From a virus: a stretch of 64,000 nt of DNA. The DNA lies in IMG/VR virus record IMGVR_UViG_3300025930_000141, positions 1-64,000 of that record; one strand, given 5' to 3'. The notes under the pieces are model-generated. The model ran no database searches and was not told where the DNA came from. It was given only the letters and a program-made list of their open reading frames with translations. Of this stretch, positions 46,503 to 51,887 are shown one piece after another (the first letter of the stretch is position 1; every line of letters starts with the position of its first letter). A program made the position numbers and the translations under genes.

Positions 46503-46506
46503 ATGT

Positions 46507-46612
46507 ATTCGGATATGGTACGAAGTCGATAGGACACCAGTCCCAAATAGGCAGGAATCGAACCTGGCCTCGCTAACTTTGGCAACGATAAACGACTATC
46601 ATCGACCCGAAT
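46507..46612 (-). ncRNA. Y RNA-like gene 6 (T-arm payload)
   Basis: AUUCGGGUCGAUGAUAGUCGUUUAUC ... CAGG-UUCGAUU-CCUG ... CGACUUCGUACCAUAUCCGAAU. Confidence 0.8.
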
Positions 46613-46623
46613 TAAGTATTAAA

Positions 46624-46740
46624 TTAGCAGGAATGGCAAGGCCAGTTTGTGTCTACCCTGGCCTCAGATGGAGCGGCGACAGCGCCGACCAGTCCAAGTG
46701 CCATTACAGCGGCGGCAAGCGCGCCAGCAATTCTCTTCAT
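46624..46740 (-). CDS. 38-aa secreted pre-peptide (signal + RVDTNWPCHSC)
   Basis: SD GGGAGG; signal peptide ending PSEA. Confidence 0.75.
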   Translation of the reverse strand: MKRIAGALAAAVMALGLVGAVAAPSEARVDTNWPCHSC

Positions 46741-47304: not shown

Positions 47305-48300
47305 TCATGCCTTGATAAGCAGTCTCGTGTTTGGCATCAGGTTACGGTTAATCGAGGTTGACTGAACGAAAATGTCGTAGTCCGGGTTGTAATCGGGCTT
47401 TACCCGTACCGTGTGGCTTGGTAGGCCAATAAGGTCACGAGCATTCTGACCACCATAAGCCTTACCGGTAGACTTCTCTACTACGATAATAGACTTCTGT
47501 GGCTGAATGTTTTCAGTCTTTGTCAACTGGTAGTAACCCATACCCTTGGAGTAGGCGTAACCCAGGCGACGAACAAAGTCGTCAATGCGGGTCTTGGAGT
47601 CTACGTTGTAGAACTCATAACCATCCAAAGGCTGTAGGTTCTTAACCGTTGCCTTGTTTACCGCATCTGCGCCTGTCGAGAAGACGGCGCGCGAGCCACG
47701 TACACCGCTGGCACGGTTTGTCATGAAGTTGTCTGTGGCCGTACGGATGGTGCTGACGGCCTCAACAATTCCAGTGGCACTAGTGGTGTCCCAAATTGCT
47801 ACGGAGCCTGCATCGGCCCCCAGACGGCTCACATAGGCCTGTCCTGACCTGTCAGGCACCAGCCAACCGATGGTCCAGTTGTCTGCTGCGCGGTTTAGCA
47901 TGTTTGCCAGGTCGTGAGCGCTGTGACGCGAGCGGTTTTCCTGTCCGTCGGTTAGGACGAATGTCAGGAATGCGTGGTCACCATAAAGTTGGCTGGTCGT
48001 AGCCAAGTCCTGCTGGCTCTTGATGGTTGCGTCAATAAGGGCGGTAAGTCCTCGGACGTTGTAAAGGTCACTAATCGACGGTAGACGCATTACGTCCATA
48101 TCGAAGATTAGGCACTCTACGTTATCGTGGAACAGATATACGCTGACTCGCGTCTCTTGTTGCAATTCTTCGCTTCTCAGAGCGAGGTAACGAATCTGTT
48201 CGTCGGCTACCTGGATTAACTTGCTTCTGTGGCTCGTCATGCTGGAACTACCGTCCAGCACGAGCGCCACGTGATTAATTAGTCGTTGTGCTTTGTGCAT
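47305..48300 (-). CDS. von Willebrand factor A domain protein
   Basis: MIDAS DGSSSM, TALIDA, LTDGQEN; extra C-terminal domain. Confidence 0.88.
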   Translation of the reverse strand: MHKAQRLINHVALVLDGSSSMTSHRSKLIQVADEQIRYLALRSEELQQETRVSVYLFHDNVECLIFDMDVMRLPSISDLYNVRGLTALIDATIKSQQDLATTSQLYGDHAFLTFVLTDGQENRSRHSAHDLANMLNRAADNWTIGWLVPDRSGQAYVSRLGADAGSVAIWDTTSATGIVEAVSTIRTATDNFMTNRASGVRGSRAVFSTGADAVNKATVKNLQPLDGYEFYNVDSKTRIDDFVRRLGYAYSKGMGYYQLTKTENIQPQKSIIVVEKSTGKAYGGQNARDLIGLPSHTVRVKPDYNPDYDIFVQSTSINRNLMPNTRLLIKA

Positions 48301-48661: not shown

Positions 48662-50260
48662 TCAGACTCGACCAGCGAAGAAGTTAGCCATTACGCTAGG
48701 CGTAGATGAGTCGAAACCTACTACGTCGAGCATACCGGCGTCCTTCGGGTCTGCCACGGTGAAGCCTGTTGAGACCATACCTACAGAAACTAGGCGGGCG
48801 TTGCGGCCACGAGAGTCGCGGTACTGCTTAAGTGCGACATTTGGCTTAACGCTACCGGCCCACGTCTCGTTGTCGGTGTAAACCGCGAAAGCATCAACAT
48901 CAATACCCTTGCTCTTGGCGTAAACCATTGGCTGGGCAATGTCGGTGCCACCGAACGACAAACCGCTGACCTTACGGAGCACGGTTTCGAACGAATCGGC
49001 GTCACCGATGTTCAGGGTTACCAACGAAGTCGTGAAGGCGTTAACCACAACGTAAGGCTCGGTGCGCACGGTGACCATAGCCATGAGCGCAGCGGCCTCT
49101 CGACAGTTAAGACCAACGAGGCCAGCAGGGGCGTACATGGTCATAGAACCTGAAACGTCAAGGCTTACCATGGTTGGAACACCGGCAGGCTCGACGGTCT
49201 TGAAGGACTCATAGAATCCAGACTCAAGAGCGCCCAAAACCTTAGCGTTCATACCACGGTGCTGCTTACCGAGGATACCGCGAGCGTTGGCGTACTGGAC
49301 TGGGTGTACCCGGCCCTTTACGATACGCTCGCCGTCAGCAAGAGCAATAGCCACGTCGCCTGCGAACTTAACGTCCTTGAAAGCACCAATCTCTTCGAAC
49401 CGCTTGAGGTTACGAATGAGAGCGGTCTGACCTAGAGCGCCGTTGTAGAAAAGCGTCTTCCATACGTCAGGGTCCTTAAGGAACTGGGTAGGAATGGTTT
49501 CCCAAGGAAGAGCCTTGTACGTGTTAAGAACGCGCACAACTTCCTTGGCGCTTGTGGTGCGCTGCATGGCCTTGAAACCGTCGATAATTTCCGGCGTGTT
49601 TTCAATCTCGGCACGGTCGGCCTTGATAGGCCCGCCAAGAACAAAGTCACCAATGCTAACGTTTACGCCCTTAGGGTGAGCAAGACGGAATACGTCGCGG
49701 TGCGTCCAACCGTCGCGCTGGCGGTACTTGACTACCTGATAAGCCAACTGGTTGTCGTCCTTAGACGTGTACCAGTCTGCAAGGCTACCGCGCTTTGCGC
49801 GACCAAGGCCACCCAAGTCCTTAAGGTACTGTGCGTACTCGAAAAGGTGGGTACCGGTGCGGGCAACCTTAGGGACAAGCGCCCGAACGGCAGCCTTGTT
49901 CTCAGCGTTGTGCATGAGCAAGGCTAGCACGAAAAGGCTAGGGCTGTTCTTAGGTGCGCGGTTTTCGTCAGCGACAGCGCGGAGCGTGTCGATAACCAAC
50001 TGCTCGTCAGACTTGATAAGTGCGAGGACGAACTTAGCGTTGTCCTTGGTCAACTTACGCTCTGAGACGTAGTAGGTACCGCCGTCCGTACCAAGAATCA
50101 GGAATCGCTCAAGGCGAACCTGCGGCGTAACACCGAATACAAAACCTCCGGCGTTGTTACGTACCTCGTCGGTACGTCCAGGGGTACGCTTGTTCTGAGG
50201 CGTACCGTTGTAACGAGTGTTTGCGATTTCACCCGTTAAGTTCTTTAATGCGTTCTTCAT
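48662..50260 (-). CDS. rsr: Ro60 / TROVE-domain RNA-binding protein (Rsr)
   Basis: NNAGGFVF..RLERFLILGTDGGTYY, KYRQRDGWTHRD..RLAHP, LPWE, ALIRNL, RVHP; vWA DVSGSM, GGTD, YTDNETW, DAGMLDVVGFD. Confidence 0.96.
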   Translation of the reverse strand: MKNALKNLTGEIANTRYNGTPQNKRTPGRTDEVRNNAGGFVFGVTPQVRLERFLILGTDGGTYYVSERKLTKDNAKFVLALIKSDEQLVIDTLRAVADENRAPKNSPSLFVLALLMHNAENKAAVRALVPKVARTGTHLFEYAQYLKDLGGLGRAKRGSLADWYTSKDDNQLAYQVVKYRQRDGWTHRDVFRLAHPKGVNVSIGDFVLGGPIKADRAEIENTPEIIDGFKAMQRTTSAKEVVRVLNTYKALPWETIPTQFLKDPDVWKTLFYNGALGQTALIRNLKRFEEIGAFKDVKFAGDVAIALADGERIVKGRVHPVQYANARGILGKQHRGMNAKVLGALESGFYESFKTVEPAGVPTMVSLDVSGSMTMYAPAGLVGLNCREAAALMAMVTVRTEPYVVVNAFTTSLVTLNIGDADSFETVLRKVSGLSFGGTDIAQPMVYAKSKGIDVDAFAVYTDNETWAGSVKPNVALKQYRDSRGRNARLVSVGMVSTGFTVADPKDAGMLDVVGFDSSTPSVMANFFAGRV

Positions 50261-50307
50261 TTTGTTTCCTTTCGTCCCGGTCGTTTCGGGAATGTTATAT
50301 TAACGAC

Positions 50308-50397
50308 TGGCGGCTACTGTAGGATTCGAACCCACGGAAGGTTTTACCCTTCGCTTGTTTTCAAGACAAGTGCAATCGCCCACTCTGCCAAGTAGCC
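50308..50397 (-). tRNA. tRNA-Ser(TGA)
   Basis: Long variable arm; G73; encoded CCA. Confidence 0.93.
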
Positions 50398-50401
50398 GAG
50401 T

Positions 50402-50544
50402 ATGCTGGATATAAGTGCGAAATCGGGGTTTAACGGCGGCTTTACCATTTGCCTATACCCCACATGAATTGGGTGGGGCAACAGGATTCGAACCTGCATT
50501 CACCGGCTCCAAAGGCGATAACCGATATTCAATCGACCCAGCAT
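50402..50544 (-). ncRNA. Y RNA gene 1 (YrlA class; contains a complete permuted tRNA-Gln(UUG))
   Basis: Ro stem AUGCUGGGUCGA../..AUAUCCAGCAU; T arm, loop-closed acceptor stem, D arm; 142 nt upstream of the ro60 start. Confidence 0.9.
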
Positions 50545-50552
50545 TAAGTTGT

Positions 50553-50670
50553 GTACCGAATATGTTATTGCAACGGAGTTTTTACTATATAGCATACAGC
50601 ACACCGACAGGGCCGGTGTATTGGATTTGAACCAATGATTTCCGATAACCGTTAACATTCGACTCGGTAT
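50553..50670 (-). ncRNA. Y RNA gene 2 (YrlA-like)
   Basis: AUACCGAGUCGA..CGGUUAUC; AUUGG-UUCAAAU-CCAAU; ACACCGGC-CCU-GUCGGUGU; ..CAUAUUCGGUAC. Confidence 0.87.
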
Positions 50671-50672
50671 AG

Positions 50673-50746
50673 TAGCGGAGACGGGATTTGAACCCGCGTT
50701 GTCAGGATTATGAGCCCTGTGTTTAACCGAACTAAACTACTCCGCG
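50673..50746 (-). tRNA. tRNA-fMet(CAT)
   Basis: C1xU72 mismatch; GGG in the anticodon stem. Confidence 0.9.
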
Positions 50747-50748
50747 AG

Positions 50749-50821
50749 TGGGCCGTATAGGATTCGAACCTATGACTTCTTCGGTGTAAACGAAGCACTC
50801 TAACCACTGAGTTAACAGCCC
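50749..50821 (-). tRNA. tRNA-Val(TAC)
   Basis: CTTCG-TTTACAC-CGAAG. Confidence 0.92.
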
Positions 50822-50824
50822 ATG

Positions 50825-50937
50825 GTACCGGACATAAGGTTGAAATCGAGCGTTTTGACTGGGGACCGCCCCATGCACGAGTCGAACGTGCCCGACCTTA
50901 TATTCAGTAAGATAACCGATTTCATTCGGCCCGGTAT
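50825..50937 (-). ncRNA. Y RNA-like gene 3 (T arm + short acceptor-like hairpin)
   Basis: AUACCGGGCCGAAUGAAAUCGGUUAUC; GCACG-UUCGACU-CGUGC; ..CGAUUUCAACCUUAUGUCCGGUAC. Confidence 0.85.
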
Positions 50938-50945
50938 TTAGTTTT

Positions 50946-51021
50946 GAGAGGATATGTGGTCGGCATCGTGTTTATGGTTAATTGCAATATAATTAGATAA
51001 ACGATACCGTTCGACCCTCTT
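50946..51021 (-). ncRNA. Y RNA-like gene 4 (minimal)
   Basis: AAGAGGGUCGAACGGUAUCGUUUAUC ... CGAUGCCGACCACAUAUCCUCUC. Confidence 0.8.
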
Positions 51022-51023
51022 TG

Positions 51024-51098
51024 CGACCTTGAAGGGATTTGAACCCTCGGCTTCTAGCGTGACGGGCTAGCACTCTAACCAGACTGAGTTACAAGGCC
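51024..51098 (-). tRNA. tRNA-Asp(GTC), C33
   Basis: CTAGC-CCGTCAC-GCTAG; G73. Confidence 0.9.
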
Positions 51099-51109
51099 AT
51101 GTTAATTTA

Positions 51110-51175
51110 GAGCGAATATGTGGTTGACCAACGGGGGTTCATTGTTGTAAGATAACCGTCAATCTTCGACTCGCT
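51110..51175 (-). ncRNA. Y RNA-like gene 5 (minimal)
   Basis: AGCGAGUCGAAGAUUGACGGUUAUC ... CGUUGGUCAACCACAUAUUCGCUC. Confidence 0.8.
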
Positions 51176-51255
51176 TGGTAGGGCAGACAGGAGTTGAACC
51201 TGCGTGTCACCAGTTACCCTTTCTACTCGTTATCAGCGAGAGGGGATACTGCCCT
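51176..51255 (-). tRNA. rearranged tRNA-Ile(GAT)-like gene (D loop 3' of the anticodon arm)
   Basis: AGGGCAG-TA-T-CCC-CT-CTCG-CTGATAA-CGAG-TAGAAA-GGG-TAACTGG-TGACAC-T arm-CTGCCCT-ACCA. Confidence 0.75.
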
Positions 51256-51397
51256 ATAAAGTCACTTTGGAGTGACTTCGGTGTGAGTGTCGCAACACTC
51301 CATATTCATACCGCCGCCAGCAGATTCGCCGTCGCCGCTATGCGGCATTGGCTGTGGTGCTGGTCCTGGTATGCCATTACTATTGATTGCCATAACG

Positions 51398-51471: not shown

Positions 51472-51813
51472 CTATGTAATTTCTATGACAGGAATCCCCA
51501 TCGCCCTATAGTGTAGCACGACCTCAGGGTCGTTGTCAAGCGCCTCGACCACGCTGTAGACCTGTCGAATTTTCTCAACTAGTTCAACCTTGTAAAGTGG
51601 ATTCTTTTTCCGGTCTGGTGAGAACGCCATACCTCGGAGTGGAATCACATCTTTAAGAGTGTTATAGATGAAATCTTCATTTGTCTCCTGCATACGGTAA
51701 GTTACTACATATACCGGCAGCCCGCGTTCATTCAAGTAATCCACAGTGGGTTGAATAAGACCGTAGTATTTCTTGAATAATACACCGTCGAAATCGCTGA
51801 CTATTATGTCCAT
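51472..51813 (-). CDS. HAD-family phosphatase (PNKP 3'-phosphatase-like)
   Basis: DFDGV motif I, VTYR motif II, K, DND motif IV. Confidence 0.75.
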   Translation of the reverse strand: MDIIVSDFDGVLFKKYYGLIQPTVDYLNERGLPVYVVTYRMQETNEDFIYNTLKDVIPLRGMAFSPDRKKNPLYKVELVEKIRQVYSVVEALDNDPEVVLHYRAMGIPVIEIT

Positions 51814-51887
51814 GGCACGGGTGGAGGGATTCGAACCCATCGCACTAGAGTTTTGGAGGCTCTGTGACTCAACCAACGCTCACCCGC
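51813..51887 (-). tRNA. tRNA-Trp(CCA)
   Basis: Loop CTCCAAA; G73; encoded CCA; weak D arm. Confidence 0.78.

What the first reader, a model, noticed from the sequence alone, without database searches (positions are those of the whole stretch)
50402..50544. Y RNA 1 contains a complete, circularly permuted tRNA-Gln(UUG), including anticodon and CCA
Seen: after CGGUUAUC the RNA reads GC-CUUUGGA-GCCGG-UGAAU-GCAGG-UUCGAAU-CCUGU-UGCCCCA-C-CCA, then linker AUUCAUG, then UGGGGUA-UA-GGC-AAAUGGUAAA-GCC-G-CCG. Re-ordering gives a full cloverleaf with no missing nucleotide. It has U1-A72/G2-C71/G3-C70, an anticodon stem CCG|GC:GCCGG broken between positions 29 and 30 where the Ro scaffold is grafted on, a UUG anticodon (50510-50512) and an encoded CCA. 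Known: YrlA RNAs mimic the T, acceptor and D arms; U1-A72 is a bacterial tRNA-Gln determinant. Inference: this is a recently captured tRNA. RNase P cleavage plus trimming could give a two-piece, possibly chargeable tRNA tethered to Ro60, or an anticodon decoy. It suggests how new Y RNAs arise from tandem tRNA arrays.
Basis: partly seen in the sequence, partly recalled or inferred. Interest (0 to 1): 0.86.

Follow-up and report, generated by a model that had tools for sequence, protein, structure and literature searches.

The report
Phage Y RNA mimicking a whole tRNA
This small RNA gene next to a phage Ro60 gene really does contain every part of a tRNA in rearranged order, but that is the shared design of a large known RNA family (YrlA-type Y RNAs), not a freshly captured glutamine tRNA.

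Summary
Observation confirmed. At 50402-50544 (minus strand), 141 nt upstream of a Ro60 gene, the RNA holds the 3' half of a tRNA, then C73-CCA, a 7-nt linker and the 5' half. The Ro60-binding stem enters between anticodon-stem positions 29 and 30. ARAGORN calls the re-joined sequence tRNA-Gln(UUG), but this test proved very permissive.

The layout is not special to this RNA. Of 62 homologues with the same spacing, beside Ro60 genes in phage contigs, 54 form a full 5-bp composite anticodon stem with a 7-nt loop (2.9 expected by shuffling). The loops carry U33, a purine at 37, A38 and the tRNA-like 36/37 pairing rule. Bacterial homologues show it too (21 of 27). The triplet differs in almost every copy. 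Y RNA 1 is no closer to tRNA-Gln genes than to Ala, Asp or His genes. "Recent tRNA-Gln capture" is therefore not supported.

The hairpin is the "V" stem-loop of Chen et al. 2014. Permuted-tRNA likeness, RNase P cutting with CCA addition, and a tandem-tRNA origin are already in print. Possibly new: the V arm is an anticodon-arm mimic, and encoded CCA is about 9-fold enriched in the phage copies.

This scan has noted related tRNA/Y-RNA hybrids on other DNA.

The parts
50402..50544 (-). Y RNA 1 as a whole (143 nt), a YrlA-class Y RNA
   Evidence: Model R1, built from it, finds about 110 non-redundant homologues, nearly all just upstream of Ro60 genes on the same strand. The weak Rfam YrlA match covers the full model.
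50536..50544 (-). 5' strand of the 9-bp terminal stem; it pairs with 50402-50410
   Evidence: Folds. In homologues this helix is 94% paired and all 9 pairs change on both sides.
50402..50410 (-). 3' strand of the terminal stem. It ends 4 nt before tRNA-Ser(UGA) at 50308-50397.
50530..50537 (-). GUCGAUUG, a one-mismatch version of the GNCGAAN0-1G motif proposed to contact Ro60
   Evidence: Read from the sequence. The motif is defined in PMC4201824. The other Y RNAs in the window carry GUCGAA or GCCGAA.
50517..50524 (-). CGGUUAUC block containing the family's conserved YUAY
   Evidence: 6 copies in the window against 1.8 expected, four of them in the Y RNA cluster. GGUUAYC is near-invariant in homologues.
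50520..50526 (-). 5' strand of the Ro60-proximal bulged helix (AUC-GGUU); it pairs with 50422-50430, where CC is bulged
   Evidence: helices 2 and 3 are 87-88% paired with changes on both sides.
50422..50430 (-). 3' strand of the Ro60-proximal bulged helix (AACC-CC-GAU)
50506..50516 (-). Mini-hairpin GC-CUUUGGA-GC, equal to tRNA positions 30-40: the lower 2 bp of the anticodon stem plus the 7-nt loop. UUG lies at 50510-50512.
   Evidence: The same frame holds other triplets in close homologues.
50503..50505 (-). CGG (positions 41-43); it pairs with CCG at 50434-50436 (positions 27-29) to form the upper anticodon stem
   Evidence: Helix 4. Within the subfamily the pairings are CCG:CGG in 7 copies, CCU:GGG in 14 and CUG:CGG in 2.
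50434..50437 (-). G26 (50437) and CCG, positions 27-29. The chain then leaves for the Ro60 helix.
50498..50502 (-). Variable loop UGAAU (positions 44-48). U48 can form the Levitt pair with A15.
   Evidence: Read from the sequence. Homologues have 4-5 nt here, often AGGUC.
50481..50497 (-). T arm: GCAGG, UUCGAAU, CCUGU
   Evidence: This helix is 99% paired in homologues.
50474..50480 (-). Acceptor 3' strand UGCCCCA (positions 66-72); it pairs with 50456-50462
   Evidence: The acceptor helix is 96% paired and all 7 pairs covary.
50470..50473 (-). Discriminator C73 followed by an encoded CCA
   Evidence: N73-CCA occurs in 14 of 86 phage-contig homologues against 1.55 expected, and in none of the 36 bacterial copies printed in full.
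50463..50469 (-). Linker AUUCAUG that closes the acceptor stem. Its last G (position -1) can pair with C73.
   Evidence: UCAUG or UCGUG endings recur in related copies.
50456..50462 (-). Acceptor 5' strand UGGGGUA (positions 1-7)
50438..50455 (-). U8-A9 and the D arm (3-bp stem; loop with A14, G18 and G19)
   Evidence: The D helix is 99% paired.
48662..50260 (-). Ro60 orthologue (532 aa), the presumed protein partner
   Evidence: Pfam vWA_Ro60 at 1.4e-57 and TROVE at 1.1e-34; phrog_850; 59% identical to the Ro-like protein of Streptomyces phage Blueeyedbeauty.

Best explanation
Y RNA 1 is a YrlA-class Y RNA of a soil (rhizosphere) phage related to Streptomyces phages. Its two ends form the Ro60-binding stem. 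The rest folds as a circularly permuted mimic of a whole tRNA. The T arm, acceptor stem and D arm are as in published YrlA RNAs. In addition, an anticodon arm is assembled from two parts: 3 bp between the strand after the D arm and the strand before the variable loop, stacked on a 2-bp hairpin with a 7-nt anticodon-type loop. This is the inherited ground plan of the family, not a recent capture of tRNA-Gln. The hairpin is the element published as the 'V' stem-loop.

Shown here: the architecture, its conservation, and the lack of any specific kinship to tRNA-Gln.

Inferred from work on other species: the RNA binds the phage Ro60 through the 5' GNCGA-type motif and bulged helix. The tRNA-like module then offers a docking surface for proteins that recognise tRNA shape.

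Inferred for this copy: it has a 7-bp acceptor stem, C73-CCA and a single-stranded linker. It is therefore probably cut by host RNase P at the 5' side of the acceptor stem and trimmed back to CCA, as happens to M. smegmatis YrlA. That would give a two-piece RNA with a free CCA end, still held together by the acceptor and Ro60 stems. I do not expect it to act as a decoding tRNA-Gln.
For: Context: it lies 141 nt upstream of a Ro60 gene on the same strand, inside a tRNA and Y RNA array.

Family: model R1 finds homologues upstream of Ro60 in 70+ IMG/VR loci, in Streptomyces, Gordonia and Mycobacterium phages, and in bacterial genomes. Across 68 distinct sequences, 94.3% of cells in the full structure are paired. 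The figure is 62.6% when shuffled and 35-45% when the partners are slid.

Anticodon arm: 54 of 62 have a 5/5 composite stem, against 2.9 expected. U33 is present in 33 of 39 distinct loops (null 0.25), a purine at 37 in 37 of 39 (null 0.52), and A38 in 35 of 39. G36 goes with G37 in 12 of 14 loops, and non-G36 with non-G37 in 23 of 25 (Fisher P 1.8e-6), the same trend as in real tRNAs of the same loci. Bacterial copies: 21 of 27. The YrlA of Bxz1-type mycobacteriophage Wally, a member of the published family, has the same arm.

Not a recent capture. No phage tRNA matched this stretch among the listed blastn hits.

RNase P precedent and the 7-bp rule: PMC4201824.

CCA: 14 of 86 against 1.55 expected.
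Against: The Rfam YrlA model scores only 18 bits (E 1.1) against a gathering score of 69.

The minimum-energy fold does not give the cloverleaf. The model structure is about 15 kcal/mol above the minimum, and the z-score is only -1.84.

The lower anticodon helix in this copy is only 2 bp.

The counts are not corrected for shared ancestry, and alignment A2 was fitted to my model.

There is no expression, binding or processing data for this RNA.

G at -1, paired with C73, could shift or weaken RNase P cutting.
Confidence: 0.72

Rival explanations
1. Anticodon-loop decoy or sensor. The tRNA-like module, and above all its anticodon-type loop, imitates particular host or phage tRNAs. Host tRNA-cutting defence enzymes (VapC, MazF, PrrC or colicin-type anticodon nucleases), or enzymes that modify position 37, would then bind or cut the Ro60-tethered RNA. 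The triplet would be the specificity element and would change in an arms race. This reading is compatible with the best explanation and adds a purpose to it.
For: The loops obey the tRNA 36/37 rule and keep U33, R37 and A38 while positions 34-36 vary. In one near-identical pair (127 of 131 positions the same outside the loop; 5 differences in 132 aligned positions), 5 of the 7 loop bases differ (Fisher P 1.2e-5). In the Annadreamyvirus lineage the loop CUGUGAA is kept unchanged while the stem and about 28% of the RNA change. Copies within a single phage contig carry different triplets. A PNKP-phosphatase-like gene sits inside the array. Actinophages of this kind are proposed to fight anticodon nucleases with their tRNAs (PMC10264068).
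Against: There is no direct evidence. Free variation at 34-36 is also what relaxed constraint would give. The hypervariability rests on a single lineage event. The match of Y loops to real tRNA loops is not significant (13 of 39 against 8.5 expected). Bacterial chromosomal YrlA RNAs have the same hairpin, so it is not a phage-specific counter-defence device.
Confidence: 0.2
2. One reading: a recently captured tRNA-Gln(UUG). After RNase P cutting and trimming it becomes a two-piece tRNA that can be charged (GluRS then GatCAB) while tethered to Ro60.
For: The copy has a UUG triplet, U1-A72, G2-C71, G3-C70, an encoded CCA and a 7-bp acceptor stem. The single best-scoring tRNA in my set is a tRNA-Gln(UUG) with the same UGGGGUA acceptor strand and a CCGG anticodon stem (L097:3718-3790, 48/73 identical).
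Against: That score is tied with Ala, Asp, Pro and His genes (76 against 75, 72, 71 and 70). Identity to the phage's own tRNA-Gln genes is 44/76 and 43/76. Across the family, triplet and body agree at about chance level: 6 of 54 against 2.7 expected, and the neighbour list held miscalled Y RNA halves from duplicate loci, one of them among the 6. The copy has C73 where both tRNA-Gln genes in the window carry G at position 73. The whole frame, split stem included, is shared with homologues that carry CUU, UUU, UCU, UCG, GUC and other triplets. The phage already has tRNA-Gln(UUG) and tRNA-Gln(CUG).
Confidence: 0.05
3. A true permuted tRNA gene, as in the red alga Cyanidioschyzon. The Ro60-type stem is cut out, the ends are ligated, and the acceptor loop is opened to release a normal tRNA.
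For: The gene order (3' half, linker, 5' half) matches that class. Wang et al. raised the possibility for some YrlA RNAs.
Against: No RtcB or Rnl2-type ligase was found in the 80.7-kb record, although the record is only about 63% complete and the Rnl1 control search rang nowhere. No splicing endonuclease of the needed kind has been reported in bacteria, as Wang et al. state. The stem that would be removed carries conserved Ro60-binding motifs and lies next to Ro60.
Confidence: 0.02
4. The hairpin is only a variable-arm-like extra stem-loop, as published, and its likeness to an anticodon arm is incidental.
For: Chen et al. 2014 placed it as the V arm. In the S. Typhimurium YrlA structure, the Ro60-proximal helix itself takes the place of the anticodon stem. 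In copies where the whole 5-bp stem is local (x = 0), topology alone cannot decide.
Against: The loop is a fixed 7 nt with U33, R37 and A38, and it follows the 36/37 rule. The composite stem is exactly 5 bp. A separate 4-5-nt variable loop follows the hairpin. The distance from GGUUAYC to the T stem is a fixed 16-21 nt.
Confidence: 0.1

Closest known systems
YrlA (Y RNA-like A; Rfam RF02553; Chen et al. 2014, PMC4201824; structure in Wang et al. 2018, bioRxiv 10.1101/312249)
   Same: It is encoded just upstream of a Ro60 orthologue on the same strand. It has the 5' GNCGA-type motif and the YUAY block. The order is T arm, closed acceptor-like stem-loop, then D arm, with the tRNA-invariant bases in place. 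It also has the extra stem-loop 5' of the T arm that those authors call V. The published description already says most YrlA RNAs 'resemble circularly permuted tRNAs'.
   Different: It scores far below the Rfam threshold (18 against 69 bits). The V hairpin here, together with 3 bp formed across the two strands, reads as a complete anticodon arm followed by its own variable loop. S. Typhimurium YrlA is described as lacking an anticodon loop. The acceptor stem is a full 7 bp and is followed by an encoded C73-CCA and a 7-nt single-stranded linker.
M. smegmatis YrlA (Chen et al. 2014)
   Same: It has a 7-bp acceptor stem. In that species the RNA is cut by RNase P in vivo and in vitro, and the 5' piece ends in CCA, giving a two-piece Ro60-bound RNA. 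This is the direct precedent for the processing proposed here.
   Different: There the CA is added after nibbling, whereas here CCA is encoded. No processing data exist for the phage RNA.
Circularly permuted tRNA genes of Cyanidioschyzon merolae and relatives (Soma et al. 2007, as cited by Wang et al. 2018)
   Same: The 3' half lies upstream of the 5' half, the acceptor stem is closed by a linker, and the ends pair near the anticodon stem.
   Different: Those genes mature into working tRNAs through a splicing endonuclease and a ligase. Here the paired ends are a conserved Ro60-binding module, and no such enzymes were found.
Non-permuted tRNA/Y-RNA hybrids noted earlier in this scan (for example e1-5529253: a tRNA with a Ro60-binding hairpin inserted in its anticodon stem)
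   Same: A Ro60-binding helix is joined to a tRNA body at the anticodon stem, beside phage Ro60 genes.
   Different: They have the opposite wiring, with normal tRNA ends and a hairpin-closed Ro60 module. These are AI notes that I did not test.

Membership tests
YrlA-class Y RNA | Encoded within about 4 kb of a Ro60 (TROVE) gene, on the same strand | tested here: met
   The RNA's 3' end is at 50402 and the Ro60 start codon at 50260, both on the minus strand.
YrlA-class Y RNA | 5' GNCGAAN0-1G motif (the proposed Ro60 contact) | tested here: inconclusive
   The motif here is GUCGAUUG at 50530-50537, with one mismatch (U for the second A). Sister Y RNAs in the window match exactly.
YrlA-class Y RNA | Conserved T and D stem-loops carrying tRNA-invariant bases, with an acceptor-like stem-loop between them | tested here: met
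   The T loop is UUCGAAU with G53-C61. U8, A14, G18 and G19 are present, and the acceptor stem is 7 bp. All three helices covary in homologues.
YrlA-class Y RNA | Conserved YUAY 5' of the V region | tested here: met
   UUAU lies within CGGUUAUC at 50517-50524.
YrlA-class Y RNA | Reaches the Rfam RF02553 gathering score | tested here: not met
   It scores 18 bits (E 1.1) against 69 bits, although the match covers the full model with the right architecture. The Rfam model does not fit the phage and actinobacterial branch well.
YrlA-class Y RNA | Bound by Ro60 in the cell | not testable with these tools
   Needs co-immunoprecipitation or a gel-shift assay.
Functional tRNA-Gln | UUG or CUG anticodon in a 7-nt loop on a 5-bp stem | tested here: met
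   The loop is CUUUGGA on CCG|GC:GCCGG, but the stem's 5' strand is interrupted by the Ro60 module.
Functional tRNA-Gln | Acceptor identity: U1-A72, and the position-73 base of the local tRNA-Gln genes | tested here: not met
   U1-A72 is present, but the discriminator is C73. Both tRNA-Gln genes in the window carry G at position 73. G-1 can pair with C73, which is tRNA-His-like. The window's real tRNA-His has an encoded G-1 and C73.
Functional tRNA-Gln | Body closer to tRNA-Gln genes than to other isotypes; triplet conserved in homologues | tested here: not met
   (ties with Ala, Asp and His). At least 23 different triplets occur in homologues.
Permuted tRNA gene that matures to a tRNA | A bulge-helix-bulge junction, a splicing endonuclease and a ligase to re-join the anticodon region | tested here: inconclusive
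   No RtcB or Rnl2 was found in the partial genome. The Rnl1 search was uninformative. I did not look for a bulge-helix-bulge motif.

The most novel reading that the evidence does not exclude
The 'V' stem-loop of YrlA-type Y RNAs is a true anticodon-arm mimic. Phage Ro60 would then carry RNAs that copy whole tRNAs, often down to an encoded CCA. The loop triplet would be a changeable specificity element that imitates particular tRNAs. That would make these RNAs decoys, sensors or competitors for enzymes that read anticodon loops: anticodon nucleases of host defence, or TrmD/TsaD-type position-37 modifiers. Y RNA 1 would be the most complete example, and RNase P could open it into a two-piece tRNA look-alike on Ro60.
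Probability: 0.25. Interest if true: 0.8.

Novelty: new variant of a known kind. Interest (0 to 1): 0.55.

Why it matters
What the tRNA-like half of bacterial and phage Y RNAs does has been an open question since 2014. If that half copies the anticodon arm as well, following the same 36/37 rule as real tRNAs, the list of candidate partners widens from elbow and acceptor binders to enzymes that read anticodon loops. The question then becomes testable with existing phage-host pairs (mycobacteriophage Bxz1 types, Streptomyces and Gordonia phages).

There is also a practical point. These RNAs are being annotated as tRNA genes in phage genomes, or as small hypothetical proteins.

For the finding as written, the lesson is a caution: a striking single-sequence resemblance to tRNA-Gln disappears once the family is examined.

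Tried and rejected
- **ARAGORN as a test of the re-joined sequence.** It is too permissive. With free join points it calls dozens of alternative 'tRNAs' per Y RNA, so I replaced it with a fixed-geometry stem count and shuffled controls.
- **Thermodynamic folding.** The minimum-energy fold misses the cloverleaf and the z-score is -1.84. This is uninformative for tRNA-like RNAs.
- **blastn of the region against 50,697 phage records.** Only the neighbouring tRNAs matched; no listed hit covered Y RNA 1.
- **Does the triplet match the isotype of the body?** At about chance level (6 of 54 against 2.7 expected). The neighbour list held miscalled Y RNA halves from duplicate loci, one of them among the 6.
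- **Are Y loops identical to real tRNA loops?** 13 of 39 against 8.5 expected by column shuffling, which is not significant.
- **Public sequencing runs.** No RNA holder is listed. Contigs from four other rhizosphere runs carry copies with no listed difference in Y RNA 1, so there is no natural variation to read.
- **RNA ligases in the phage record.** RtcB and Rnl2 were not found in a record that is about 63% complete. In the Rnl1 search the controls rang nowhere.
- **tRNA-His origin.** G-1:C73, one base between UUG and GUG, and a GUG-loop relative in Streptomyces phage Blueeyedbeauty make this a lead only. C73 with G-1 occurs in 15 copies and may simply be an eighth base pair.
- **Literature.** The 2020 Annual Review on bacterial Ro60 was not held in the library, so I cannot exclude that the anticodon-arm reading is discussed there.
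- **Not used.** No structure or complex prediction was run, because the question concerns RNA.

Full report
**What is there**

The window comes from an 80.7-kb IMG/VR phage record that is about 63% complete. It carries some 30 tRNA genes. It also carries a Ro60 orthologue at 48662-50260 on the minus strand, with Pfam vWA_Ro60 at 1.4e-57 and TROVE at 1.1e-34. The nearest named relatives of that protein are the Ro-like proteins of Streptomyces phages of the Stanwilliamsviridae, at up to 59% identity.

Upstream of Ro60 on the same strand, tRNA genes alternate with small RNAs that share the motifs GNCGAA and CGGUUAUC. The finding concerns the one nearest Ro60, at 50402-50544.

**The observation**

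In order it contains:

- a 9-bp terminal stem and a bulged helix containing CGGUUAUC;
- GC, the loop CUUUGGA, and GC;
- CGG, UGAAU, a canonical T arm, UGCCCCA, C and CCA;
- the linker AUUCAUG;
- UGGGGUA, UA, a 3-bp D arm, G and CCG;
- the return strands of the two outer helices.

Re-joining 50462-50434 to 50516-50470 gives a 76-nt sequence that ARAGORN calls tRNA-Gln(ttg). The tRNA tertiary-contact bases U8, A14, A15:U48, G18-G19, G53-C61 and the T loop are all present.

**How much that call is worth**

It is worth little on its own. When I let the join points vary, ARAGORN returned many alternative 'tRNAs' from this RNA and from nearly every homologue. The T, acceptor and D arms already carry most of the score. 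The minimum-energy fold does not give the cloverleaf either. The Rfam YrlA model matches end to end, but at only 18 bits against a threshold of 69. The question therefore had to be settled by comparison.

**The family**

I built a covariance model from this one RNA (R1). It found the following:

- 78 matches in 75 sources, almost all within a few hundred bases upstream of Ro60 genes on the same strand;
- 51 more in contigs picked up by a sequence pattern;
- matches in Mycobacterium, Gordonia and Streptomyces phages;
- 37 matches beside Ro60 genes in bacterial genomes, including Nocardioides, Arachnia, Micropruina, Chloroflexota and Armatimonadota.

On 68 distinct sequences the whole model structure is 94.3% paired. 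The figure is 62.6% after shuffling and 35-45% when partners are slid by one to three columns. 33 of 34 pairs change on both sides. That alignment was fitted to the model, which favours it.

**The anticodon arm is a family trait**

For each homologue I asked whether five canonical pairs can be made under fixed geometry. The 5' strand takes x bases that follow position 26, plus 5-x bases that lie just before a 7-nt loop. The 3' strand is the five bases after the loop. A 4-5-nt variable loop and then the T stem must follow.

- Among the 62 RNAs in which GGUUAYC lies 16-21 nt from the T stem, 54 reach 5/5. Shuffling the same segments gives 2.9.
- The 39 distinct loops have U at 33 in 33 cases (null 0.25), a purine at 37 in 37 (null 0.52) and A at 38 in 35.
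- G36 is followed by G37 in 12 of 14 loops. Other bases at 36 are followed by a non-G in 23 of 25 (Fisher P 1.8e-6). Real tRNAs from the same loci show the same trend.
- The segment after the hairpin is often AGGUC or a similar sequence, which reads like an ordinary variable loop (my reading).
- The bacterial copies behave the same way, with 21 of 27 reaching 5/5.
- So does the YrlA of Bxz1-type mycobacteriophage Wally, a member of the published family.

The point where the Ro60 helix enters differs between copies (x = 0 to 5).

**What the literature already says**

Chen et al. [quoted passage not shown] They also showed that M. smegmatis YrlA has a 7-bp acceptor stem. It is cut by RNase P in vivo and in vitro and acquires CCA, and they remarked that it 'could potentially be aminoacylated'.

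Wang et al. 2018 state that S. Typhimurium YrlA 'lacks the anticodon loop'. [quoted passage not shown] They compare it with algal permuted tRNA genes.

So the permutation, the two-piece idea and the tandem-tRNA origin are not new. I found no paper in the library that reads the V hairpin as an anticodon arm or reports encoded CCA. One relevant review was not held.

**Not a captured tRNA-Gln**

- The triplet in the loop takes at least 23 values across homologues.
- The closest relatives of Y RNA 1 keep the very same frame (GC, loop, GC, SGG) with CUU, UUU, UCU, UCG, AUC, GUC, UCC, AUU, UCA and others.
- The re-joined sequence is 44/76 and 43/76 identical to the phage's two tRNA-Gln genes, and 55/76 to its tRNA-His.
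- Against 303 tRNAs from all fetched loci, with the triplet masked, the top hit is a tRNA-Gln(UUG) at 48/73. It is tied with Ala, Asp, Pro and His genes.
- Across 54 Y RNAs, triplet and nearest-tRNA isotype agree 6 times against 2.7 expected. The neighbour list held miscalled Y RNA halves from duplicate loci, one of them among those 6.
- The discriminator is C, whereas both tRNA-Gln genes in the window carry G at position 73. The last linker base can pair with it as G-1:C73, which is how tRNA-His looks.

**The acceptor end**

N73-CCA directly after the acceptor stem occurs in 14 of 86 phage-contig homologues with a loop of at least 4 nt, against 1.55 expected from loop composition. None of the 36 bacterial copies printed in full has it; most of them close the stem with a short loop such as UUCG, GAAA or UC.

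Y RNA 1 therefore belongs to a phage-enriched subset with a 7-bp stem, CCA and an A/U-rich linker. From established knowledge of bacterial RNase P, which reads the acceptor/T stack and the 3' RCCA, and from the M. smegmatis result, I infer that it is opened by RNase P and trimmed to CCA. This step is not shown.

**The loop may matter**

- Two Y RNAs are nearly identical outside the loop (127 of 131 positions the same; 5 differences in 132 aligned positions) yet differ at 5 of 7 loop bases: UUAUCAC against CUUCUAA, Fisher P 1.2e-5.
- Conversely, in Annadreamyvirus-type Streptomyces phages the loop CUGUGAA is unchanged between copies that are only 72% identical and have different stems. The Gilsonvirus copies have AUUGGAA.
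- Copies within a single phage contig carry different triplets.
- A PNKP-phosphatase-like gene lies in the array.
- Actinophage tRNAs have been proposed to counter host anticodon nucleases (PMC10264068).

These points fit a decoy or sensor role for the loop. They are few, are not corrected for phylogeny, and relaxed constraint can also explain them. I give this reading about 0.2-0.25.

**Verdict**

It is wrong on recency and on tRNA-Gln identity.

The object is a YrlA-class Y RNA and the most tRNA-complete of several in this window. The others carry only partial tRNA-like modules. Y-b at 50825-50937 has the anticodon-type hairpin, a T arm and a short stem. Y-c at 50553-50670 has a T arm and an acceptor stem but no hairpin.

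The part that may be new is that the published V arm is an anticodon-arm mimic, and that phage copies often encode CCA.

Noticed in passing
L074:1954-2097 (Streptomyces phage Blueeyedbeauty, MH536814.1); L190:160-221 (phage Sham); L107:5727-5815 (Gordonia phage Mareelih): GenBank tRNA annotations lie inside or across Y RNAs: tRNA-His(gtg) in Blueeyedbeauty, tRNA-Ser(cga) in Sham and tRNA-Leu(gag) in Mareelih. The near-identical element in phages Limpid and Beuffert is unannotated. ARAGORN likewise miscalls the 5' halves of six or more Y RNAs as tRNAs. Y RNAs in actinophage genomes appear to be systematically mis-annotated or missed.
   Followed up: partly
window 50825-50937 (-) and 50553-50670 (-): The two neighbouring Y RNAs carry partial tRNA mimics. 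Y-b has a 5-bp hairpin with the loop CUGAAUA, a T arm and a 5-bp closed stem, but no D arm. Y-c has a T arm and a 7-bp acceptor-like stem, but no anticodon-type hairpin.
   Followed up: partly
window 51179-51255 (-): A tRNA-like gene (Rfam tRNA at 31 bits; not called by ARAGORN) has no D arm and a long extra arm. It has the loop CUGAUAA and ends in A-CCA, right where the next Y RNA begins.
   Followed up: no
L087:9077-9215 versus L102:7711-7849: These two Y RNAs are about 96-97% identical outside the anticodon-type loop but differ at 5 of 7 loop bases. This is a sharply localised replacement.
   Followed up: partly
L191:201-345 (Streptomyces phage Annadreamy): The Y RNA is identical to that of Blueeyedbeauty for its first 70 nt (Ro60 handle, hairpin and T arm) and then unrelated. 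This copy has lost the acceptor and D parts.
   Followed up: no
window 47305-48300 (-): A 331-aa gene of unknown function (phrog_26613, 1.6e-87) lies downstream of Ro60. Genes of similar size sit in the same place in Streptomyces phages Blueeyedbeauty and Comrade. It is a possible functional partner.
   Followed up: no
window 51472-51876 (-): A 134-aa ORF inside the tRNA and Y RNA array matches the phosphatase part of polynucleotide kinase-phosphatase (phrog_415 at 9.6e-11; Pfam HAD_PNKP below its cut-off). No RNA ligase was found in the partial genome.
   Followed up: partly
window 46503-46625 (-): Another Y-type RNA has GUCGAU and GUUUAUC motifs, a 5-bp hairpin with a 7-nt loop (CCAAAGU, no U33) and a T arm, but no acceptor or D arm.
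   Followed up: no
window 50262-51300: Contigs from rhizosphere metagenomes of several other studies carry parts of this stretch; the pieces over Y RNA 1 show no listed difference, so the phage recurs in that habitat.
   Followed up: partly
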